Positions 2,988-24,963 of a stretch of DNA of 32,715 bases are shown here, piece by piece. Every line of letters starts with the position of its first letter. Position 1 is the first letter of the stretch. Source of the DNA: a plasmid. The notes under the pieces were generated by a model. It was not told where the DNA came from, made no database searches, and saw only the letters and a list, made by a program, of their open reading frames with translations. The position numbers were made by a program, and so were the translations under genes. The stretch lies in NCBI RefSeq assembly GCF_053078305.1, contig NZ_CP166878.1, one strand, 5' to 3'.

Positions 2988-3000
2988 ACATTTAGCATTA

Positions 3001-3080
3001 TATGCTTATATGCTTATATGCTTATATGCTTATATGCTTATATGCTTATATGCTTATATGCTTATATGCTTATATGCTTA
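3001..3080. repeat. Perfect tandem octamer microsatellite (TATGCTTA x10)
   Basis: Ten uninterrupted head-to-tail copies of TATGCTTA directly readable in sequence, starting 14 bp after the virB11 stop. Confidence 0.95.
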
Positions 3081-3105
3081 TATCATTGTGTTTGTGTGAA
3101 ATATT

Positions 3106-3299
3106 GCTGTAACATCGACGGTCTACGACCACCTACCACCTGAATAGCTGTAGGTTCCGTGCGGTCAGGCTTGGCAGGGGGCTGACGCGGTTCCTGGCGA
3201 CATGAAACTCCCTGGTTAGGGGTATCGGCGCGACCTGGCATCTGTGACTCTATAAAGCCATTTTTCGCGCCTTCCATGCCGCTAAAGCGGCATATTCCA
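3106..3299 (+). repeat. 194-bp repeat family, copy 1 (upstream of ccdA)
   Basis: Near-identical to 18900-19093 and ~90% identical to 3962-4155; begins GCTGTAACATCGACGGTCTACG and ends with hairpin ATGCCGC-TAAA-GCGGCAT then ATTCCA. Confidence 0.9.
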
Positions 3300-3961: not shown

Positions 3962-4155
3962 GCTGTAACATCGACGGTCTACGACCACCTACCAGCCGAG
4001 TGGCTGTCTGTTCCGTGCAAATGGGCTTTGCAGGGGGCTGGCGCGGTTCCTGGCGACCTGAAAGCCCCTGGTTAGGGGTATCGGCGCGACCTGGCATCTG
4101 TGACTCTATGAAACCATTTTTCGCGCCTTCCATGCCGCTAAAGCGGCATATTCCA
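3962..4155 (+). repeat. 194-bp repeat family, copy 2 (downstream of ccdB)
   Basis: Same length and ends as copy 1; about 20 substitutions clustered in hairpin-forming segments, several compensatory. Confidence 0.9.
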
Positions 4156-17293: not shown

Positions 17294-17340
17294 GGGGCGT
17301 TGAAAACGGAAAATAACCCACGCTAAGACTGTTTTTTAAC
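17294..17340 (+). repeat. Tn21-subfamily-like inverted repeat, left arm
   Basis: GGGGCGTTGAAAACGGAAAATAACCCACGCTAAG matches the inner 25 bp of the Tn21 IR (remembered ...CAGAAAACGGAAAATAAAGCACGCTAAG); inverted partner at 18563-18609. Confidence 0.6.
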
Positions 17341-17649
17341 CAGGCTATGATAATGCTATCTGTGACGGATGATGGTCGTTGCTCTTTTGTTAATGCTAAC
17401 GGATGCGTACATTAGCATTAACTTTTTGTGTTATGTTGCACGTGAATTTTTGAGTTTTAATATTTATATAATGTTATGAATATTAAAGATAAATGATGAA
17501 CATGCTTTGTGATGGCTTTTGGCGCATAGATTGATCTTAAGATCTGCGCATGTTATTTTTATGCGGTTTTGACGAATTTATAAGGGTAGGACGTTCCCGT
17601 AACAGCGTCCAGGGGAGGGGGTAGCGAATTTATAGCCCCCGGAATGCAA

Positions 17650-17743: not shown

Positions 17744-17800
17744 ATGCATTTTTCAATACAAGACTACTGCCCGGCAATAAGTGCGGGCGGTGGTGGCTGA
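17744..17800 (+). CDS. Leader peptide overlapping repA start (translational coupling candidate)
   Basis: 18-codon ORF MHFSIQDYCPAISAGGGG whose stop lies 17 nt inside repA, the arrangement seen for tap/repY-type leader peptides. Confidence 0.45.
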   Translation: MHFSIQDYCPAISAGGGG

Positions 17801-18506
17801 AAAGAACAATTCCTTAATCCCCCGCATATCGCCGTCAGGGGTGGCCAAACAAAGTCCATGCTATAACGTTGTGTCGCGTAAGCGACGCCGTTTCCTCAAT
17901 CGCTGGATTAAATCGCTGGCGACGGTCGCTGGGCGTGTCAAAATCAAAAACGAACTCCGCCGCCGTATCCGGCATAACCGATATTGGGTTAATGAGGCTA
18001 ACAAGTTTGGCATAGAGGCACTTTGCGAACTGATGTTAGCTATCCTGGATGATCTCGATTTACGCTCCTGGGAAACCAGGCATAACCTCGAAACACTGGC
18101 AGAACGTGCCGGACTGGTGACACGCAGTGACGCGGGGCGTAAATCTATTTCCCGTGCCAGTAGGGGATGTGATCGCCTGGTCTGGTTGAATGCGATCATT
18201 ACAGATAAAGCGCCGTTTAACCCCTATGATGCACGGTGTGCCTGTAAACACATTGAAGTAACCGAAGACTTCTTTGCCATACTCGGCATTCCGTTAAAAC
18301 TGGTTTATCGGGAACGTGCCAGGCTGTTAAAGGCAGATCCTAATGAAATGATTTACTCCGGGGATGCCAGACTGATAGCTATCAGAGTCCAGAACTGGAC
18401 ACGGAAAGCGGCAGCCGGATTAGCCCGGATGAAAGCGAAACGCGACGCAGCTCGACAACGCAAAAAAGAATATTACGCTCACCCACCTACCCCTATTCCG
18501 GTCTGA
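17781..18506 (+). CDS. repA: IncFII-family replication initiator RepA
   Basis: Segment LETLAERAGLVTRSDAGRKSISRASRGCDRLVWLNAIIT aligns with the RepA1 core of R100-type proteins (SITTLAIECGLATESAAGKLSITRATRALTFLSELGLIT); GTG start right after an in-frame stop. Confidence 0.75.
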   Translation: MRAVVAEKNNSLIPRISPSGVAKQSPCYNVVSRKRRRFLNRWIKSLATVAGRVKIKNELRRRIRHNRYWVNEANKFGIEALCELMLAILDDLDLRSWETRHNLETLAERAGLVTRSDAGRKSISRASRGCDRLVWLNAIITDKAPFNPYDARCACKHIEVTEDFFAILGIPLKLVYRERARLLKADPNEMIYSGDARLIAIRVQNWTRKAAAGLARMKAKRDAARQRKKEYYAHPPTPIPV

Positions 18507-18562
18507 TACAGGCTAACTTACCGCCTTATGGGGCGGTGTATCGCCACGTCCATAATAAAAAG

Positions 18563-18609
18563 CTGTACAAAAAATAGTCTTGGCGTGGGTTATTTTCCGT
18601 TTTCCATGC
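18563..18609 (-). repeat. Tn21-subfamily-like inverted repeat, right arm
   Basis: Reverse complement reads GCATGGAAAACGGAAAATAACCCACGCCAAGACTATTTTTT, matching the left arm over ~36 bp with 2 mismatches; outer GGGG is absent. Confidence 0.6.
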
Positions 18610-18899: not shown

Positions 18900-19093
18900 G
18901 CTGTAACATCGACGGTCTACGACCACCTACCACCTGAATAGCTGTAGGTTCCGTGCGGTCAGGCTTAGCAGGAGGCTGACGCGGTTCCTGGCGACATGAA
19001 ACTCCCTAGTTAGGGGTATCGGCGCGACCTGGCATCTGTGACTCTATAAAGCCATTTTTCGCGCCTTCCATGCCGCTAAAGCGGCATATTCCA
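18900..19093 (+). repeat. 194-bp repeat family, copy 3
   Basis: Differs from copy 1 by only a few substitutions; same orientation; sits between the repA origin region and the next gene. Confidence 0.9.
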
Positions 19094-19570: not shown

Positions 19571-20221
19571 ATGATGGTTAATTCAAAAAAATTTGTGATA
19601 ATTGCGTTAAGTTCATTATTGTTGGCAGGGTGTGACTCATCGAAGGATGCCAATAAAGCAAACTTTGAAAAAGCGATTAATACGAAACTTGAGAAGGAAT
19701 GCATTACAATCAGTCCTCTTGGGAGGTTTGATAGTAAGCCTTATCCAGTTCAATTATCTGTCGCCCAAACTAATCGATATACATCTCAGGAACAGGCAGA
19801 CGAAATAAATACCAAAGAGTTTTCCATGTTTGATGCACTGGTTAAAGCTGGTTTATTGACAGTAAAAGATACCCTAGTTGATGAAACTATCGGATTTTCT
19901 AAAACAGGTAAAAAAGTGCCTGGGCGTGAATATGCTCTGACAGAGAATGGGAAAAAATATCTGAAATCTCCAGAGCGCCCTGATTTCTGTATTGGTCATT
20001 ATAAGGTTGATGAGATCATTGATTTTACTGAACCTGGTGATGCGATGGGAATGAAAATAACAAGGGTCAATTACACATTCAGTCCTACGAATATTGCTGA
20101 ATGGGCAAAGAGCGATGATATTCAGGCAGCATTTCCACTTCTTAAGTTTAATTTGAAAGAGAAACAGAAAAACCGTCTATCTCTGGTTTTGAAAAATGAT
20201 GGATGGTCCGCTGAACGATAG
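19571..20221 (+). CDS. Hypothetical lipoprotein
   Basis: Lipobox LLLAGC after hydrophobic leader; 216 aa; RBS GAGGAAAAATG. Confidence 0.6.
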   Translation: MMVNSKKFVIIALSSLLLAGCDSSKDANKANFEKAINTKLEKECITISPLGRFDSKPYPVQLSVAQTNRYTSQEQADEINTKEFSMFDALVKAGLLTVKDTLVDETIGFSKTGKKVPGREYALTENGKKYLKSPERPDFCIGHYKVDEIIDFTEPGDAMGMKITRVNYTFSPTNIAEWAKSDDIQAAFPLLKFNLKEKQKNRLSLVLKNDGWSAER

Positions 20222-20340
20222 GTAGATAAATGACGTTGCTACGTGGTCTCCCTCTTTTGCTGATTTCACGTAGCACTCTCACTCTGCCGCTACTTCTCGT
20301 TATTCTGAACAGATGATTGAAAAATAAGGAGAATCAAATA

Positions 20341-20379
20341 ATCTCTTGATTTTATAATCCTATGATTATAAGATTGTTG
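20341..20379 (+). promoter_or_regulatory. Operator-like block P1 (CTTGATTTTATAATCCTATGATTATAAGATTGTT)
   Basis: About 85% identical over ~38 bp to 23919-23956 and related to the TGATT-repeat region upstream of parA. Confidence 0.5.
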
Positions 20380-20387
20380 TGTATGAG

Positions 20388-20409
20388 TGTTTGGATAGAG
20401 AATTATTGT
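20388..20409 (+). repeat. GTTTGGATA(TA)GAGAATT motif, copy a
   Basis: One of three direct copies (with 21113-21130 and 22086-22109); this copy lacks the TA dinucleotide. Confidence 0.8.
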
Positions 20410-20431
20410 AATCAAGTGGGAGATATTATTT

Positions 20432-20920
20432 ATGAATAATTTACGTGATAAAAAATCAAATCCTGTTATTACATTAATTGTTGTTGTTATTTCTTTATTC
20501 CTCCTTCCTGCAATCGTCGCGGGACTAGGAACTATGGGAGTGATTTACATTGATGGTCTGCGAGAATTACCGTCTTTTTGTATAAAGGCAATAAGTGTAG
20601 CAATCTGGATGCTTGTAGTTGCATACCTGATGTGTCGTATCATGAAAGCTAAGAAAGATTTTATTCGCTTACCTGCAAAACTGACGCTTATTGGAGCAGT
20701 TCTCTTGCCTCTGATAAGCAGTTTTAATAATGTAGTGACTACTATGTCATCTCCAGATGTTTCCACCAGAACAGACTTTCATGCAGCACTTATAAAAGGT
20801 CTGGACACAATGGAAAGTGAATTTATGTTTATAGTACCTGCTTTATTATGTGCAATAGCTTCCATTATGCTGGCTGTTGGAATGATAAATATTTTACGTA
20901 ATCGTTATATGGGGCGCTAA
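20432..20920 (+). CDS. Hypothetical polytopic membrane protein (162 aa)
   Basis: Several hydrophobic helices; RBS GGGAG; preceded by block P1 and motif copy a. Confidence 0.55.
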   Translation: MNNLRDKKSNPVITLIVVVISLFLLPAIVAGLGTMGVIYIDGLRELPSFCIKAISVAIWMLVVAYLMCRIMKAKKDFIRLPAKLTLIGAVLLPLISSFNNVVTTMSSPDVSTRTDFHAALIKGLDTMESEFMFIVPALLCAIASIMLAVGMINILRNRYMGR

Positions 20921-20955
20921 TCTGATGTGCGGTGATTGTGAGGTTGATTATAGAA

Positions 20956-21127
20956 GGGATTTAATGTGGAACTGATAACAGATAATTTTTTTGAGTGGGT
21001 GGTGGCTCTCGCTATTTTGAATTTTATCGTCACGTTGAAATCTAAAGAGAAAATAACTTTGTTGTTAACGACGATAATTAGCCTACTTATTGCTTCAATT
21101 ATATTGAGGGCAGTTTGGATATAGAGA
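20956..21127 (+). CDS. Possible small membrane protein (56 aa)
   Basis: GTG-start ORF with two hydrophobic stretches; its stop codon lies inside motif copy b; weak call. Confidence 0.25.
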
Positions 21128-21130
21128 ATT
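21113..21130 (+). repeat. GTTTGGATATAGAGAATT motif, copy b
   Basis: Identical core to copy c; shares preceding GGG-CAG context with copy c. Confidence 0.8.
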
Positions 21131-21211
21131 TTACAAAATGAACTGTGCTATTTATCAATATCATTGATAAACACACTCTAATAATCACTCTTTACAGGAA
21201 ATGTACTCACT

Positions 21212-21529
21212 ATGATTATTAATCGAGAAAAATTTGAAATTATCAGAAAAATCATTCATGACACTCTGCTGGGTAATATTGCGCTCGTCGTTATTGCATT
21301 AATGTCTCCGGTTCTGTTAGATAAAATAGCGGAGCCTTTTAATATTATTATAGCTTCCGCCATGTCGATTTCCTTTATATTTATTCTTTGCTGGCTGGCT
21401 TCTTCAATCTGGTTGTACGCAGGAGAACTTGCGAAAAATAAAAGTTTAAGATGTACTCTTTTTATACTATGGGCACTGAGTGCTGAGGGTTCAATTATTT
21501 TAACTGCGAGAGATATTATTTTATGGTAA
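21212..21529 (+). CDS. Hypothetical membrane protein (105 aa)
   Basis: Two to three hydrophobic helices; no family recognised. Confidence 0.5.
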   Translation: MIINREKFEIIRKIIHDTLLGNIALVVIALMSPVLLDKIAEPFNIIIASAMSISFIFILCWLASSIWLYAGELAKNKSLRCTLFILWALSAEGSIILTARDIILW

Positions 21530-21583
21530 TGATCGTGGCGCGATTGCCAGCGAGCTAGGGGTTCCGTGGGAATTTCTGCGATA

Positions 21584-21621
21584 GGGGTTTGAAGCCCAAC
21601 CGTACGAAAACGTACGCTAAG
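21584..21621 (+). mobile_element. Tn1000/Tn3-family 38-bp terminal inverted repeat
   Basis: GGGGTTTGAAGCCCAACCGTACGAAAACGTACGCTAAG, close to the gamma-delta/Tn3 IR consensus (GGGG...ACGAAAAC...ACG.TAAG); a resolvase gene remnant ends 2 bp away. Confidence 0.75.
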
Positions 21622-21622
21622 T

Positions 21623-21862
21623 TCATTTCTTGAACAACCTGGCTGACTCTATGTATTTGTACAGCGTTGGCCTCGATATCCCCATCAACACACAAATCTG
21701 CGCAACGGTATGTTTTTTCTCGTTATAGAGTTGAACAGCAAGGGCCTGTTTATCCTTACTCAGTGTTTTCGGCCTGCCGCCCTTACGTCCTCTGGCTCGT
21801 GCTGCTTGAAGCCCGGCCTGAGTTCTCTGGGGGGTCGCGCCCATTTCCTCTAAAAGTCTCAC
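21623..21862 (-). pseudogene. Serine recombinase (resolvase/invertase) C-terminal HTH fragment
   Basis: 79-aa ORF containing GRKGGRPK...HTVAQICVLMGISRPTLYKY, the C-terminal DNA-binding domain only; the catalytic N-terminal domain is missing. Confidence 0.7.
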
Positions 21863-21885
21863 CTTGCTTAGGTAATTAATTGAAT

Positions 21886-22100
21886 TTATTTATAAAACAT
21901 TGCAATTTTAGCATCATTTTTTATTGTTCTTTTTAACCTGAAGTACGTCGATCGAGAGATACCTGTTTTTTCTGTCACACTGCCCAGAGATTCTCCCTGT
22001 GATATAAGCTCCAACGCTGTAGGCGTTCGTGGATGCTTCTTCCTGCCAAATTTTACGCCTGCGGCAAGTGCCGCTATTGGGGTCAGTTTGGATATAGAGA
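21886..22100 (-). pseudogene. Second recombinase-like HTH fragment (no start codon)
   Basis: Minus-strand frame encodes ...AALAAGVKFGRKKHPRTPTALELISQGESLGSVTEKTGISRSTYFR, resembling a serine-recombinase C-terminus; the frame runs into motif copy c with no initiator. Confidence 0.4.
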
Positions 22101-22109
22101 ATTATTGTA
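22086..22109 (+). repeat. GTTTGGATATAGAGAATTATTGTA motif, copy c
   Basis: Third direct copy; lies at the 5' truncation point of the recombinase-like fragment. Confidence 0.8.
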
Positions 22110-22404
22110 CGGCAAGCCTGTTTTTTGAACAGACTTACCTATCGCGATAGGGTGTACTCCCGTGCTATACGGCGTTTTCAGGGGCTTTGGCCTTAATCGG
22201 ATAACCTAAATGCGACATAGCAAGAGCGATAACTTAAAGGCGATAGCCGCTGATGTTAAATCAATACGTTAGAATCTTAAATTGATTAAATAATGCGCTT
22301 AACGTACAAAAATTTCCGTTTCCCAAACCGCCCCCATATTGTACGTTTCCCTAACCGACCCCTTACTGGTCGCGGAAAAATCCAGGTTTCCGGCCTGGAA
22401 CCCC

Positions 22405-22536
22405 TATACAATCACTTGATTCGATAATTATAAAATTAAGTGATTTTATGATTGCATGATTCTATGAGCATGGGATTATTAGAATGTTTGGCAGAGGTAC
22501 TATGTGAACAAAGGGGAGGGGAAAATGCCTAAAGTT
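22405..22536 (+). repeat. Orphan duplicate of par promoter-operator plus first 4 parA codons
   Basis: About 94% identical over 132 bp to 24844-24975, including RBS and ATGCCTAAAGTT, then diverges; the operator inverted repeat is degenerate in this copy. Confidence 0.85.
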
Positions 22537-22614
22537 GGAGCAGCGGGAGCGTTCGAACAGAGACTTACGGTTTCGTTCTTTGTGCAGCAGTTGAAACCGT
22601 AATTATTTGTTTTA

Positions 22615-22865
22615 GGGGTTTGAGGCTCAGTGGAACAATAACCGCCGTTAAGCGGTCATTTTAAATAGCCAAAAATCAACCAGCCAATTTACATCGTGAA
22701 TCTGCGTTCTTGGCTATCTGTTTTGGGGGGCCAAGTTGGCTTTACTCATCCTGGCCGTTTGCGGAACAAAAGACGTTGTTGATCTCAACAGATTGATTAA
22801 CCTGTTATTGACCATTCAATTGAACCGCTTAACCGCCTTTTGAGTTCCACTACTCCCCAAACCCC
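22615..22865. mobile_element. Miniature Tn3-family element (TIME-like), 251 bp, with 5-bp target-site duplication
   Basis: 38-bp IRs GGGGTTTGAGGCTCAGTGGAACAATAACCGCCGTTAAG (22615-22652) and inverted GGGGTTTGGGGAGTAGTGGAACTCAAAAGGCGGTTAAG (22828-22865); flanked by direct repeat TTTTA on both sides; no ORF inside. Confidence 0.8.
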
Positions 22866-22882
22866 TTTTATGCCAAGTAGAA

Positions 22883-23091
22883 GGGGTTTGAGGGCCAACC
22901 GTACGAAAACGTACGGTAAGAGGAAAATTATCGTCTTAAAAATCGATTAGTAGACAATGCCGTCCGTTAAGTGCCAATTTTCGATTAAAAAGACACCGTT
23001 TTGATGGCGTTTTTCTATGTCCATTATGTTTTGATATATCAGACAGTTACTTCACTAACGTACGTTTTCGTTCCATTGGACTTCAGCCCCC
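22883..23091. mobile_element. Second miniature Tn3-family element (TIME-like), 209 bp, with 5-bp target-site duplication
   Basis: IR GGGGTTTGAGGGCCAACCGTACGAAAACGTACGGTAAG (22883-22920) and an inverted IR at 23054-23091 that contains TGGAACGAAAACGTACGTTA; flanked by TAGAA on both sides. Confidence 0.75.
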
Positions 23092-23111
23092 TAGAATACG
23101 TCAGATGTGTT

Positions 23112-23333
23112 CTACCTAGATTGTAGAGACTGAATTAGTGCTTCTACTGCCCAATCAGGACAGGTTCTGGAGCTTGGTTTATCCGGGTCATTAATCCAGG
23201 AACGGATAGTTCTTACAGAGCATGGTCGGTGAGTGTATTCACAAATTAGGTTCGCGGCTTGCGCCTGGGTTAACCCGTTATCAGTCAGTAACGTTATAAA
23301 TGCGGCACGGTTATCTGACACTATAAACCCCAT
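23112..23333 (-). CDS. Small putative DNA-binding protein (73 aa)
   Basis: HTH-like segment LTQAQAANLICEYTHRPCSVRTIRSWIN; overlaps the end of the upstream membrane-protein gene by 23 nt. Confidence 0.45.
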   Translation of the reverse strand: MGFIVSDNRAAFITLLTDNGLTQAQAANLICEYTHRPCSVRTIRSWINDPDKPSSRTCPDWAVEALIQSLQSR

Positions 23334-23805
23334 CTTTTTTGAACGTAATGCTAACCTGCCCTTCTGTCGGAACCTCCATTACTTCCCGGATCTTTTTATT
23401 TATGGCAATTTCGGTAGCGCTCACAAAGATCGGAATCCCTTTTGCCGCTATGCTGATAGCTACGGCAATAACCGTCAAAGCAATACAGTAGTATGTTATT
23501 ACTCTAATAATTTCAGCTATATTCTCAGAGGGGGAGTTTCTTAGAAATGTTATTAAATGTATTAATTCTGCTTGATGATAAATAGAATAAAACATAATAG
23601 AGGCAATAAATATTGCGAAACCATGAACAAAATAATGCCAGAGTTTAAGGGGTATTCTCCAAGCAAATCCAATGTAACTGAAAACTGAAGCCACATGAGT
23701 TCTCCAGTCTTTTTTTACTGATTTAACTATTTCTTCATATTGTGATATTGGCATTGAGCCGACTTCAATATTATTGACTTTAACTATCGCTATGCCCTCT
23801 TGCAT
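23311..23805 (-). CDS. Hypothetical membrane protein
   Basis: Start placed at the ATG preceded by a consensus AAGGAG RBS (ORF track extends to 23898); three to four hydrophobic helices. Confidence 0.55.
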   Translation of the reverse strand: MQEGIAIVKVNNIEVGSMPISQYEEIVKSVKKDWRTHVASVFSYIGFAWRIPLKLWHYFVHGFAIFIASIMFYSIYHQAELIHLITFLRNSPSENIAEIIRVITYYCIALTVIAVAISIAAKGIPIFVSATEIAINKKIREVMEVPTEGQVSITFKKDGVYSVR

Positions 23806-23918
23806 GACTTTGTTCTCCTTCTGCCATGATAAAAGATCTTGTTTTACATACCATGATAGGCACATGTGCCTGTTTGGTGCAACATGCTTTACAAACATAA
23901 GAATAATAAAAGGATATA

Positions 23919-23956
23919 ATCCCTTGATTTTGTAATCATATGATTATATGATTGTT
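23919..23956 (+). promoter_or_regulatory. Operator-like block P2 in divergent promoter region
   Basis: ATCCCTTGATTTTGTAATCATATGATTATATGATTGTT, homologous to P1 (20341-20379); lies between divergently oriented genes. Confidence 0.5.
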
Positions 23957-24843: not shown

Positions 24844-24963
24844 TATACAATCACTTGATTCGATAATCATAAAATCAAGTGATTTTATGATTGCATAATT
24901 TTATGAGTATGAGATTATTAGAATGTTTGGCAGAGGTACTATGTGAACAAAGGGGAGGGGCAA
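24844..24963 (+). promoter_or_regulatory. par promoter-operator (candidate centromere/operator)
   Basis: Perfect 12-bp inverted repeat AATCACTTGATT ... AATCAAGTGATT plus reiterated TGATT motifs directly upstream of parA. Confidence 0.6.

What the first reader, a model, noticed from the sequence alone, without database searches (positions are those of the whole stretch)
20388..22109. Three direct copies of GTTTGGATA(TA)GAGAATT motif beside recombinase remnants
The ~20-bp motif recurs at 20388, 21113 and 22086, twice providing the stop codon of a short ORF and once lying at the broken 5' end of a recombinase-like fragment. It may be a recombination site for the now-fragmented serine recombinase or the boundary of small gene cassettes.
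Basis: partly seen in the sequence, partly recalled or inferred. Interest (0 to 1): 0.45.

Follow-up and report, generated by a model that had tools for sequence, protein, structure and literature searches.

The report
MITESen1 transposon end plus two relics
The repeated motif is the terminal inverted repeat of MITESen1, a known miniature Tn3-family transposon: one intact copy that broke a resolvase gene plus two decayed solo ends in the plasmid backbone, so it is ordinary mobile-element debris and not a site for the serine recombinase.

Summary
The three direct copies are real (20389, 21113, 22086) and far above chance.

**Copy 3.** It is bases 8-25 of the 38-bp left inverted repeat (22079-22116) of a complete 257-bp MITESen1-like element (22079-22335). 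MITESen1 is a Tn3-derived miniature element listed in ISfinder. At least 80% of the 267-bp query that starts at this element's left end is found in over 1,390 enterobacterial plasmids, with unrelated flanks in the loci read. Here it cuts off the 5' two-thirds of a Tn3-family resolvase gene, inside a nest of Tn3-type ends.

**Copy 2.** It matches positions 3-25 of the same repeat (22/23). It begins exactly where this plasmid lineage departs from the ancestral backbone. It heads a ~437-bp insertion that carries one 105-aa gene. Relatives still have the terminal GGGGG.

**Copy 1.** It matches positions 8-31 (22/24, with a 2-nt deletion) and has lost the outer GGGG. It sits in the probable 5' leader of a 162-aa gene and is the least certain of the three.

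**Verdict.** The motif has no dyad symmetry and is not at a res position. It is a DDE-transposase end, not a serine-recombinase site. The cassette-boundary idea is loosely right for copy 2 only. This is known biology and of low interest. The side observations are three independent substitutions in the terminal G's of copy 2 and a possible one-ended gene capture.

The parts
20389..20416 (+). Copy 1: decayed solo inverted-repeat relic. It is equivalent to MITESen1 left-repeat positions 8-31, with a weaker match on to about position 38. The outer GGGG is absent. It lies in the probable 5' leader, 16-43 nt upstream of the ATG of the 162-aa ORF (20432-20920).
   Evidence: It matches 22/24 with one 2-nt gap. 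It is present in the family plasmids read, with one SNP in L003. A diverged copy without the gap (GTTTGAATATCGGAAATTATTGTAATCAAG) lies upstream of a different gene in pMS20659.
21106..21130 (+). Copy 2: solo inverted-repeat relic, equivalent to MITESen1 left-repeat positions 1-25. The outer end is mutated (GAGGGCAG here, GGGGGCAG in relatives L022/L023). It supplies the last codons and the TAG stop of the 52-aa ORF.
   Evidence: It matches positions 3-25 at 22/23. The synteny break with L002, L003, L010 and L011 falls at 21105/21106. The terminal variants are listed.
21106..21543 (+). Derived insertion of ~437 bp, headed by copy 2 and carrying one gene (105-aa ORF, 21212-21529). The backbone appears to resume at TTGCCAG (21544).
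   Evidence: In the plasmid collection it occurs in only 2 other records; 5 further contigs came from the protein look-ups. The ancestral sequence TTGYCAGATAA is shared by E. coli and K. pneumoniae relatives. The homologue in L018 shares the segment only to about 8 nt past the stop codon.
22079..22335 (+). Complete MITESen1-like miniature element (257 bp, no ORF). Copy 3 of the motif is at positions 8-25 of its left end.
   Evidence: It is 87.5% identical over positions 1-256 of the ISfinder MITESen1 sequence given in Table S2 of PMC13367494. Positions 61-257 are 98.5% identical to a copy in L003. The same unit has unrelated flanks in other plasmids. At least 80% of the 267-bp query 22079-22345 is found in 1,394 plasmid records.
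22079..22116 (+). Left 38-bp inverted repeat of the element: GGGGTCAGTTTGGATATAGAGAATTATTGTACGGCAAG (contains copy 3).
   Evidence: It matches the reference left repeat at 37/38. These columns are almost all invariant in the 5-locus alignment.
22298..22335 (-). Right inverted repeat of the element (reverse complement GGGGGCGGTTTGGGAAACGGAAATTTTTGTACGTTAAG).
21886..22078 (-). 3' remnant (residues 131-193 of 193) of a Tn3-family serine recombinase (tnpR), cut off by the MITESen1-like insertion.
   Evidence: It is 99.5% identical in DNA to intact 'recombinase family protein' genes. tblastn gives 98.4% over residues 131-194 of the query translation, which includes the stop codon.
21828..21885 (+). 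Right end of that transposon (called TnX here): a terminal inverted repeat beginning GGGGGTCGCGCCCATTTCC at about 21830, plus the spacer up to the tnpR stop codon.
   Evidence: Window 21828-22078 equals L003 19221-18971 at 99.2%. In L003 the whole transposon has a 5-bp duplication, ATGTT. The window has the empty ATGTT site at about 28840.
21623..21829 (-). 3' remnant (helix-turn-helix domain) of a second serine recombinase, interrupted by the TnX end.
   Evidence: It matches Gin/Hin-type invertases at residues 123-179. It gives a weak NCBIfam hit to the C-terminus of a serine recombinase.
21584..21621 (+). Terminal inverted repeat of the IS101 / gamma-delta type, belonging to the transposon that carried the second resolvase.
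   Evidence: It is 92% identical to the right repeat of IS101. The inverted-repeat profile gives E = 2e-7.
21558..21583 (+). Truncated (26 nt) inverted repeat of another miniature element. The same repeat ends the ~220-bp element in L002, L003 and L008.
22336..22404 (-). Other end of that miniature element (repeat GGGGTTCCAGGCCGGAAACCTGG... plus 30 nt of interior).
   Evidence: It is 96.8% identical to L002 5649-5710.
22615..22865 (+). A further 251-bp Tn3-type miniature element with a 5-bp target duplication, TTTTA.
   Evidence: The inverted arms are (I2). The empty site is in L019.
22883..23092 (-). IS101 copy (93.8% identical) with a 5-bp target duplication, TAGAA.

Best explanation
All three copies are versions of one sequence: the left 38-bp terminal inverted repeat of the Tn3-derived miniature element MITESen1.

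**Copy 3** is a working-type end of an intact 257-bp element. The element has no transposase. It would be moved by a Tn3-family TnpA supplied in trans, which binds the 38-bp repeat, cuts at the conserved GGGG end and makes 5-bp target duplications by replicative transposition. The element landed in the tnpR gene of a resident Tn3-family transposon. That transposon had itself landed in the tnpR of another. A later deletion next to the element's right end plausibly removed the rest, leaving the two resolvase remnants.

**Copy 2** is a solo end of the same repeat type at the left edge of a ~437-bp, one-gene insertion into the 3' end of a small backbone gene. Its terminal G's have since mutated.

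**Copy 1** is an older, more decayed solo end that now lies in the probable leader of the 162-aa gene.

**Shown:** the identity of copy 3, the mobility of that element family, the junction positions, and the ancestral state at copy 2.

**Inferred:** the order of events, the adjacent deletion, the origin of copy 1, and any present activity.
For: - **Reference match.** The ISfinder MITESen1 sequence starts GGGGTCAGTTTGGATATAGAGAATTATTGTACGGTAAG. It aligns full length to 22079-22335 (87.5%), at positions 3-25 to 21108-21130 (22/23) and at positions 8-31 to 20389-20410 (22/24). Only these sites exceed the shuffles.
- **Mobility.** The same unit has unrelated flanks in Pantoea, Enterobacter and E. 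coli plasmids, and a 5-bp duplication AACTA in L005. At least 80% of the 267-bp query from its left end is in 1,394 plasmid records. A 191-bp query across its left junction hits 1,210 of 5,426 complete E. coli genomes, almost always on plasmids; the best hits cover only the element half of the query.
- **Copy 3 junction.** Resolvase homology ends at 22078 and the element begins at 22079.
- **Copy 2 junction.** Nine related plasmid records match the window up to 21105 and no further. In the four relatives read, including a K. pneumoniae plasmid and an IncK2/Z plasmid, the sequence then continues TTGYCAGATAA, whereas the window continues into the repeat. L022 and L023 keep GGGGGCAG at the end.
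- **Hot spot.** The region is a proven Tn3-type insertion hot spot. IS101 and a 251-bp element have target duplications here, and the empty site is in L019. Other miniature elements occupy the same gap in L001, L002, L003 and L008.
- **Literature.** The GGGGT box and the 38-bp repeat are the TnpA contact sites (PMC9579193). Solo Tn3-type repeats and one-ended transposition are described for these miniature elements (PMC4133298).
Against: - The window's element has no target duplication (CTATT against CATAT), so its insertion is not seen in simple form.
- The tnpR/MITESen1 junction is found in no other record, so the intermediate stages are not documented.
- No transposase is present in the window, and I did not identify the autonomous parent of MITESen1.
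- Copy 2 has no partner repeat, and only a weak hint of a duplication.
- Copy 1 lacks the outer 7 nt. Its inner part (TTATTGTAATCAAG...) also resembles the native leader of the homologous gene in IncX3 plasmids at about 66%. Part of its similarity to the repeat could therefore be native.
Confidence: 0.85

Rival explanations
1. The motif is the crossover or binding site (res-like) of the now-fragmented serine recombinase, and recombination between copies makes or moves small cassettes.
For: Copy 3 abuts a resolvase remnant. The copies are direct repeats that bracket small gene sets.
Against: - The motif is part of the terminal repeat of an element found, without any adjacent resolvase in the loci read, in well over a thousand plasmids.
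- It has no dyad symmetry (read from the sequence).
- It lies inside the 3' half of the tnpR coding sequence because of an insertion, not upstream of tnpR where Tn3-family res sites lie (established knowledge).
- MITESen1 showed no similarity to characterised res sites in PMC13367494.
- Relatives lacking copy 2 differ by an insertion that starts at the repeat's outer end, not by a reciprocal deletion between copies.
Confidence: 0.03
2. Copies 1 and 2 are native promoter-proximal or 5' leader modules of the plasmid backbone, shared by several operons, and their likeness to the MITESen1 end is secondary. Alternatively, the relic has been co-opted as leader sequence.
For: - Copy 1 lies between a GATT/AATC operator-like array and the ribosome-binding site.
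- The leader is kept, with its 3' part nearly identical, upstream of a different gene in pMS20659, although the intergenic region is only 71% identical.
- The parA and 23916 leaders share short pieces (GTTTGG, GAATTATT).
Against: - The parA and 23916 leaders score within the shuffle range (12-16, against shuffle best scores of 20-31).
- Copy 2 is at a derived insertion boundary.
- No RNA structure is supported (z = +1.6 and 0.07).
- No promoter consensus was found at any copy on the motif strand.
- The pMS20659 version matches MITESen1's right repeat at 21/24, which fits descent from an inverted repeat (compared by eye with the sequence).
Confidence: 0.1
3. The recurrence is chance in AT-rich DNA, or a duplicated coding segment.
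For: The window is AT-rich. Copy 2 overlaps the last codons of a small ORF.
Against: There were no matches in 100 shuffles. The alignment scores exceed all shuffles. Copies 1 and 3 are non-coding. The overlap at copy 2 is a consequence of the insertion, because the ancestral ORF ends differently (...IIFAR* in L002).
Confidence: 0.01

Closest known systems
MITESen1 (ISfinder; a 256-bp Tn3-derived inverted-repeat miniature element first seen on a Salmonella IncX1 plasmid; PMC13367494)
   Same: It has the same length (257 against 256 bp) and the same 38-bp ends (left end 37/38). It is collinear over the whole length, has no ORF, is plasmid-borne and is often found truncating genes.
   Different: It is only 87.5% identical to the reference, although 98.5% identical to a copy in the related plasmid L003. 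There is no target duplication at this site. Copies 1 and 2 are not elements, only partial solo ends.
Solo Tn3-family inverted repeats and one-ended transposition products (discussed for these miniature elements in PMC4133298)
   Same: Copy 2 is a single repeat whose outer end is the exact left junction of an inserted segment. The other end of the segment has no repeat.
   Different: There is no clear 5-bp duplication. The mechanism is not demonstrated. The terminal G's are now mutated in most lineages.
IS101 and other miniature elements; composite units bounded by two such elements (TIME-COMPs)
   Same: The same region holds IS101 and a 251-bp element with target duplications, and hybrid elements with mixed ends occur in relatives.
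   Different: The three motif copies are direct, incomplete and unpaired. They do not bound a composite unit with complete elements at both sides.
Tn3-family res sites (serine resolvase) and integron attC sites
   Same: The only likeness is that they are short repeated sequences near recombinase genes or at gene boundaries.
   Different: There are no dyad-symmetric subsites and no position upstream of tnpR. No integrase was noted among the window's long ORFs (the ORFs were not all annotated). The sequence is a transposase end.

Membership tests
MITESen1 / Tn3-derived miniature element (copy 3, 22079-22335) | Short (50-500 bp) element without a transposase gene | tested here: met
   It is 257 bp. 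The only listed ORFs of 30 aa or more that touch it are short unconserved frames running across its ends (22033-22128 +, 22286-22411 -, 22293-22427 +).
MITESen1 / Tn3-derived miniature element (copy 3, 22079-22335) | About 38-bp terminal inverted repeats of Tn3 type (outer GGGG, inner ...ACG.TAAG) | tested here: met
   The left end is GGGGTCAG...GTACGGCAAG and the right end is GGGGGCGG...GTACGTTAAG.
MITESen1 / Tn3-derived miniature element (copy 3, 22079-22335) | Full-length sequence similarity to the reference element | tested here: met
   It is 87.5% identical over 1-256. This is below the roughly 95% usually used for an isoform (my own knowledge of ISfinder practice), so it is a divergent variant.
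MITESen1 / Tn3-derived miniature element (copy 3, 22079-22335) | The same unit at many loci with unrelated flanks | tested here: met
MITESen1 / Tn3-derived miniature element (copy 3, 22079-22335) | 5-bp target-site duplication | tested here: not met
   In the window the flanks are CTATT and CATAT. The feature is met elsewhere: AACTA in L005 and TATAA for the variant in L003. This is read as rearrangement after insertion.
MITESen1 / Tn3-derived miniature element (copy 3, 22079-22335) | Mobilisation by a Tn3-family transposase in trans | not testable with these tools
   No transposase is in the window, and the parent element was not identified.
Solo Tn3-type inverted-repeat relic (copies 1 and 2) | Significant similarity to a Tn3-family terminal repeat, in register | tested here: met
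   Copy 2 matches 22/23 (positions 3-25). Copy 1 matches 22/24 (positions 8-31). Both exceed the shuffles.
Solo Tn3-type inverted-repeat relic (copies 1 and 2) | The outer end coincides with a junction against an empty or ancestral site | tested here: inconclusive
   Met for copy 2. No ancestral empty site was found for copy 1.
Serine-recombinase res / crossover site | Dyad-symmetric binding sites around a central crossover, placed next to the recombinase gene's 5' end | tested here: not met
   The motif is asymmetric (read from the sequence). It lies at an insertion junction within the 3' half of tnpR. PMC13367494 reports that MITESen1 has no similarity to known res sites.
Integron-type cassette boundary (attC) | An imperfect palindromic attC at the 3' end of each cassette, plus an integron integrase and attI | tested here: not met
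   The motif has no palindromic structure. The window's ORF lists show no candidate integrase near the motif, but the ORFs were not all annotated.

The most novel reading that the evidence does not exclude
A solo MITESen1-type end acted as a one-ended 'gene capture' unit. Repeat plus adjacent DNA (the 105-aa gene) was inserted into the plasmid from a single end. The end was afterwards repeatedly disabled: three independent substitutions in the terminal GGG in different lineages. Copy 1 is an older product of the same process, now co-opted as a leader. Retained inner halves might also bind transposase and give the plasmid target immunity.
Probability: 0.15. Interest if true: 0.45.

Novelty: already known. 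Interest (0 to 1): 0.15.

Why it matters
Mostly it matters as a correction. Short direct repeats beside resolvase remnants on plasmids are easily misread as recombinase sites, when they are the ends of miniature Tn3-family elements that annotation pipelines do not mark. None of the copies read here carried an annotated feature for the element itself.

The locus is a clear natural example of a Tn3-type insertion hot spot, with nested elements, hybrid ends and solo ends. A recent survey (PMC13367494) argues that miniature elements of this kind move resistance genes and are overlooked.

The recurrent loss of the terminal G's at copy 2, and the one-gene insertion headed by a single end, are small testable leads on how solo ends behave.

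Tried and rejected
- **Literature search for the 18-mer:** no paper holds it. The identification came instead from Table S2 of PMC13367494.
- **Public genome scans:** two scans of species-representative genomes for the copy-1 leader, one exact and one degenerate, found nothing. No older history of copy 1 could be recovered.
- **RNA structure:** folding of the leaders around copies 1 and 2 gave no support for copy 1 (z = +1.6, and 0.07 for pMS20659) and only modest support around copy 2 (z = -2.3). The latter comes partly from a palindrome specific to this window.
- **Promoter and terminator scan of 20200-22450:** fewer promoter-like sites than in shuffles, and none at a motif copy on the motif strand.
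- **NCBIfam scan:** no family for the 162-, 52-, 105-, 73-, 195- and 91-aa ORFs. The PDB search found nothing for the second resolvase fragment; its identity rests on 99.5% DNA identity to an annotated gene.
- **Source of the 105-aa gene:** only near-identical copies in the same plasmid family, one 88% homologue on a contig cut about 85 nt upstream of the gene, and roughly 50% homologues in IncI/K plasmids without the motif.
- **Autonomous parent of MITESen1:** a plasmid with 5 matching places showed no Tn3 transposase in the 18 kb read.
- **Descent from the L003 plasmid:** the idea that the window descends from L003, which carries the whole TnX, was rejected because the window has the unoccupied ATGTT target site.
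Full report
**Observation.** The motif is present three times on the + strand: 20389-20404 (the short form lacking TA), 21113-21130 and 22086-22103. No match occurred in 100 dinucleotide-preserving shuffles. The similarity reaches beyond the reported motif. Copies 2 and 3 share 27 of 29 nt from 21102/22075. Copies 1 and 3 share ATTGTA after the motif.

**Setting.** The window is a roughly 30-kb E. coli plasmid of a small family that includes CP088859.1, CP061000.1, NZ_CP040266.1 and NZ_CP045715.1. It carries type IV secretion genes, two rep genes and parA-parG. Relatives are collinear on both sides of 21100-23900 but differ inside that interval.

**Copy 3.**
- The stretch 22079-22345 is found nearly full length in 1,394 plasmid records from many enterobacterial genera, always unannotated.
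- Alignment with four such loci shows a discrete unit. It starts at GGGGTCAGTTTGGATATAGAGAATTATTGTACGG and ends at ...CCAAACTGACCCC, and the flanks are completely unrelated. Searches give further examples in which it truncates other genes.
- A recent paper on Tn3-derived miniature elements gives the ISfinder sequence of MITESen1 (256 bp) in its Table S2, and that sequence begins with exactly this 38-mer.
- BLAST of that sequence against the window gives a full-length match at 22079-22335 (87.5%).
- Copy 3 is therefore positions 8-25 of the element's left terminal inverted repeat.
- A 98.5% identical copy of the same variant (positions 61-257) sits in the related plasmid L003. It is in the same intergenic gap, in the other orientation, with a different far end and a TATAA target duplication.

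**The recombinase remnants.**
- Window 21828-22078 is 99.2% identical to the right end of a complete Tn3-family transposon in L003. That transposon carries tnpA and tnpR, has 38-bp ends and a 5-bp duplication ATGTT.
- The coding part, 21886-22077, is residues 131-193 of its 193-aa serine recombinase.
- Homology stops at 22078 and the MITESen1-like element begins at 22079, so the element removed the catalytic two-thirds of the gene.
- That transposon's end (about 21830) in turn interrupts a second resolvase remnant, 21623-21829, which has an invertase-like helix-turn-helix.
- The second remnant is followed by an IS101/gamma-delta-type end at 21584-21621. Before that end lies a truncated end of yet another miniature element at 21558-21583, whose other end is at 22336-22404.
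- Four right-pointing ends are thus stacked, and only the innermost and outermost partners remain.
- One deletion extending from the right end of the MITESen1-like element would explain this. That is inference, and the absent target duplication (CTATT against CATAT) fits it.
- No Tn3 transposase is in the window.
- Two further simple insertions lie just downstream: a 251-bp element with TTTTA duplications and IS101 with TAGAA duplications. L019 shows the empty site for both. The region is a demonstrated hot spot for Tn3-type elements.

**Copy 2.**
- MITESen1 positions 3-25 match 21108-21130 at 22/23.
- Nine related plasmid records match the window up to 21105 and no further.
- In the four relatives read, including an 82%-identical K. 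pneumoniae plasmid and a fragment captured on an IncK2/Z plasmid, the sequence then continues TTGYCAGATAA... That form is therefore ancestral.
- In the window and its closest relatives the sequence continues instead into the repeat, starting at its outer end.
- The small conserved 52-aa ORF thereby lost its last residues (FAR*) and now ends LRAVWI* at the TAG in the motif.
- The derived segment carries one gene, a 105-aa membrane-type protein. Its ~50% homologues lie in IncI/K plasmids without the motif.
- The segment seems to end at 21543, where ATTGCCAG...AGCTA resembles the ancestral ATTTGCCAG...AGCTA. An 88% homologue elsewhere shares the segment only to about 8 nt past the stop codon.
- No partner repeat and no clear duplication are seen.
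- Among relatives the outer end reads GGGGG (L022, L023), GAGGG (window, L020, L021), AGGGG (L019) or GGTGG (L001, L008), while the next 20 nt are identical. The insertion therefore started with the canonical GGGG, and the first three bases have since changed three separate times.
- In the 365 nt compared around it, 17 sites vary. This clustering at the bases that the transposase needs for cleavage (box A, PMC9579193) is suggestive. It may reflect selection against a live end, but the same bases are also a codon of the 52-aa ORF, so I leave it as an observation.

**Copy 1.**
- MITESen1 positions 8-31 match 20389-20410 at 22/24 with a 2-nt gap. The following ATCAAG loosely matches the inner CGGTAAG. 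The outer 7 nt are unrelated.
- It lies after an array of GATT/AATC tetramers spaced 8 bp apart and 28 nt before the ATG at 20432. It is therefore probably in the leader of the 162-aa gene; the transcription start is inferred, not mapped.
- It is present in the family members read.
- A diverged homologue of the whole intergenic region in the IncF plasmid pMS20659 (71% identical) carries GTTTGAATATCGGAAATTATTGTAATCAAG without the gap. That is 21/24 to MITESen1's right repeat. It is followed by the same ribosome-binding site but a different gene.
- The repeat-like sequence is thus old and has been kept.
- Its origin from a Tn3-type end is the best reading, with roughly two-in-three confidence. 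Part of its inner half also resembles the native leader of the homologous gene in IncX3 plasmids.
- No RNA structure or promoter consensus explains its retention.

**Mechanism.** The sequence is a transposase recognition end.
- In the Tn3 family one large DDE transposase contacts the whole 38-bp repeat. It needs the GGGGT box for cleavage and strand transfer, makes 5-bp duplications, and also mediates target immunity through the repeats (PMC9579193).
- Miniature elements keep only the ends and are moved in trans. Solo ends and one-ended transposition are discussed for them (PMC4133298; PMC13367494).
- Copy 3 could still be mobile if a cognate transposase enters the cell.
- Copies 1 and 2 lack a canonical outer end in this window and are most likely inert.

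- The motif is not a resolvase site. It is asymmetric. It is found as the end of an element in over a thousand plasmids, with no nearby resolvase in the loci read. It lies within tnpR only because of an insertion.
- MITESen1 shows no similarity to characterised res sites.
- The cassette-boundary idea has a grain of truth for copy 2.

**Verdict.** This is a known element (MITESen1, divergent variant) plus two solo-end relics in a Tn3-type hot spot. Interest is low. The residual novelty lies in the one-gene insertion headed by a single end and the repeated mutation of its terminal G's.

Noticed in passing
window 21106-21108, compared with L001, L008 and L019-L023: The terminal G's of copy 2 carry three different single substitutions in different plasmid lineages (GAGGG, AGGGG, GGTGG, against GGGGG in L022/L023), while the next 20 nt are invariant. 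This may mean repeated inactivation of a live transposon end, or selection on the tail of the 52-aa ORF.
   Followed up: partly
window 20338-20378, 23916-23956, 24847-24927, 22405-22542: GATT/AATC tetramers occur at an 8-bp period upstream of three operons (the 162-aa gene, the 91-aa gene and parA). The parA promoter and first 13 codons are also duplicated at 22405-22542 (93%). The layout resembles ParG-type operator arrays, and a ParG homologue follows parA.
   Followed up: no
window 22615-22865 and 22883-23092: A 251-bp Tn3-type miniature element (duplication TTTTA) and an IS101 copy (93.8%, duplication TAGAA) are inserted 17 bp apart. L019 2680-2710 shows the empty site for both.
   Followed up: yes
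window 3106-3299, 3962-4155, 18900-19093: Three copies (91-98% identical) of a ~195-nt GC-rich element lie just upstream of genes, one of them a CcgAII-like gene. Folded as single-stranded DNA it is moderately structured (z about -2.3). It may be a conserved upstream or leading-region promoter element.
   Followed up: partly
window 2998-3085: About eleven tandem copies of TTATATGC lie next to the first 195-nt repeat. They could be iterons or a slippage array.
   Followed up: no
window 17297-17355 and 18551-18609: 59-nt inverted repeats (80% complementary) flank the IncFII-type repA gene (17781-18506). The arms resemble the inner part of Tn21-type terminal repeats, as if the replicon module were bracketed by transposon ends.
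   Followed up: no
L011 (CP088867.1, IncK2/Z plasmid) 2270-2760: A 270-bp piece of this plasmid family's backbone (the end of the 162-aa gene plus the 52-aa ORF) sits between a hybrid miniature element (MITESen1 left end plus another type of right end) and the end of the TnX transposon. Backbone DNA has apparently been carried to another plasmid by Tn3-type ends.
   Followed up: partly
window 21151-21171: A perfect 9-3-9 palindrome, TTTATCAATATCATTGATAAA, lies upstream of the 105-aa gene. It is created by two substitutions specific to this window, since relatives have ATTTTACAATAGCATTGATAAA. It is probably not functional.
   Followed up: partly
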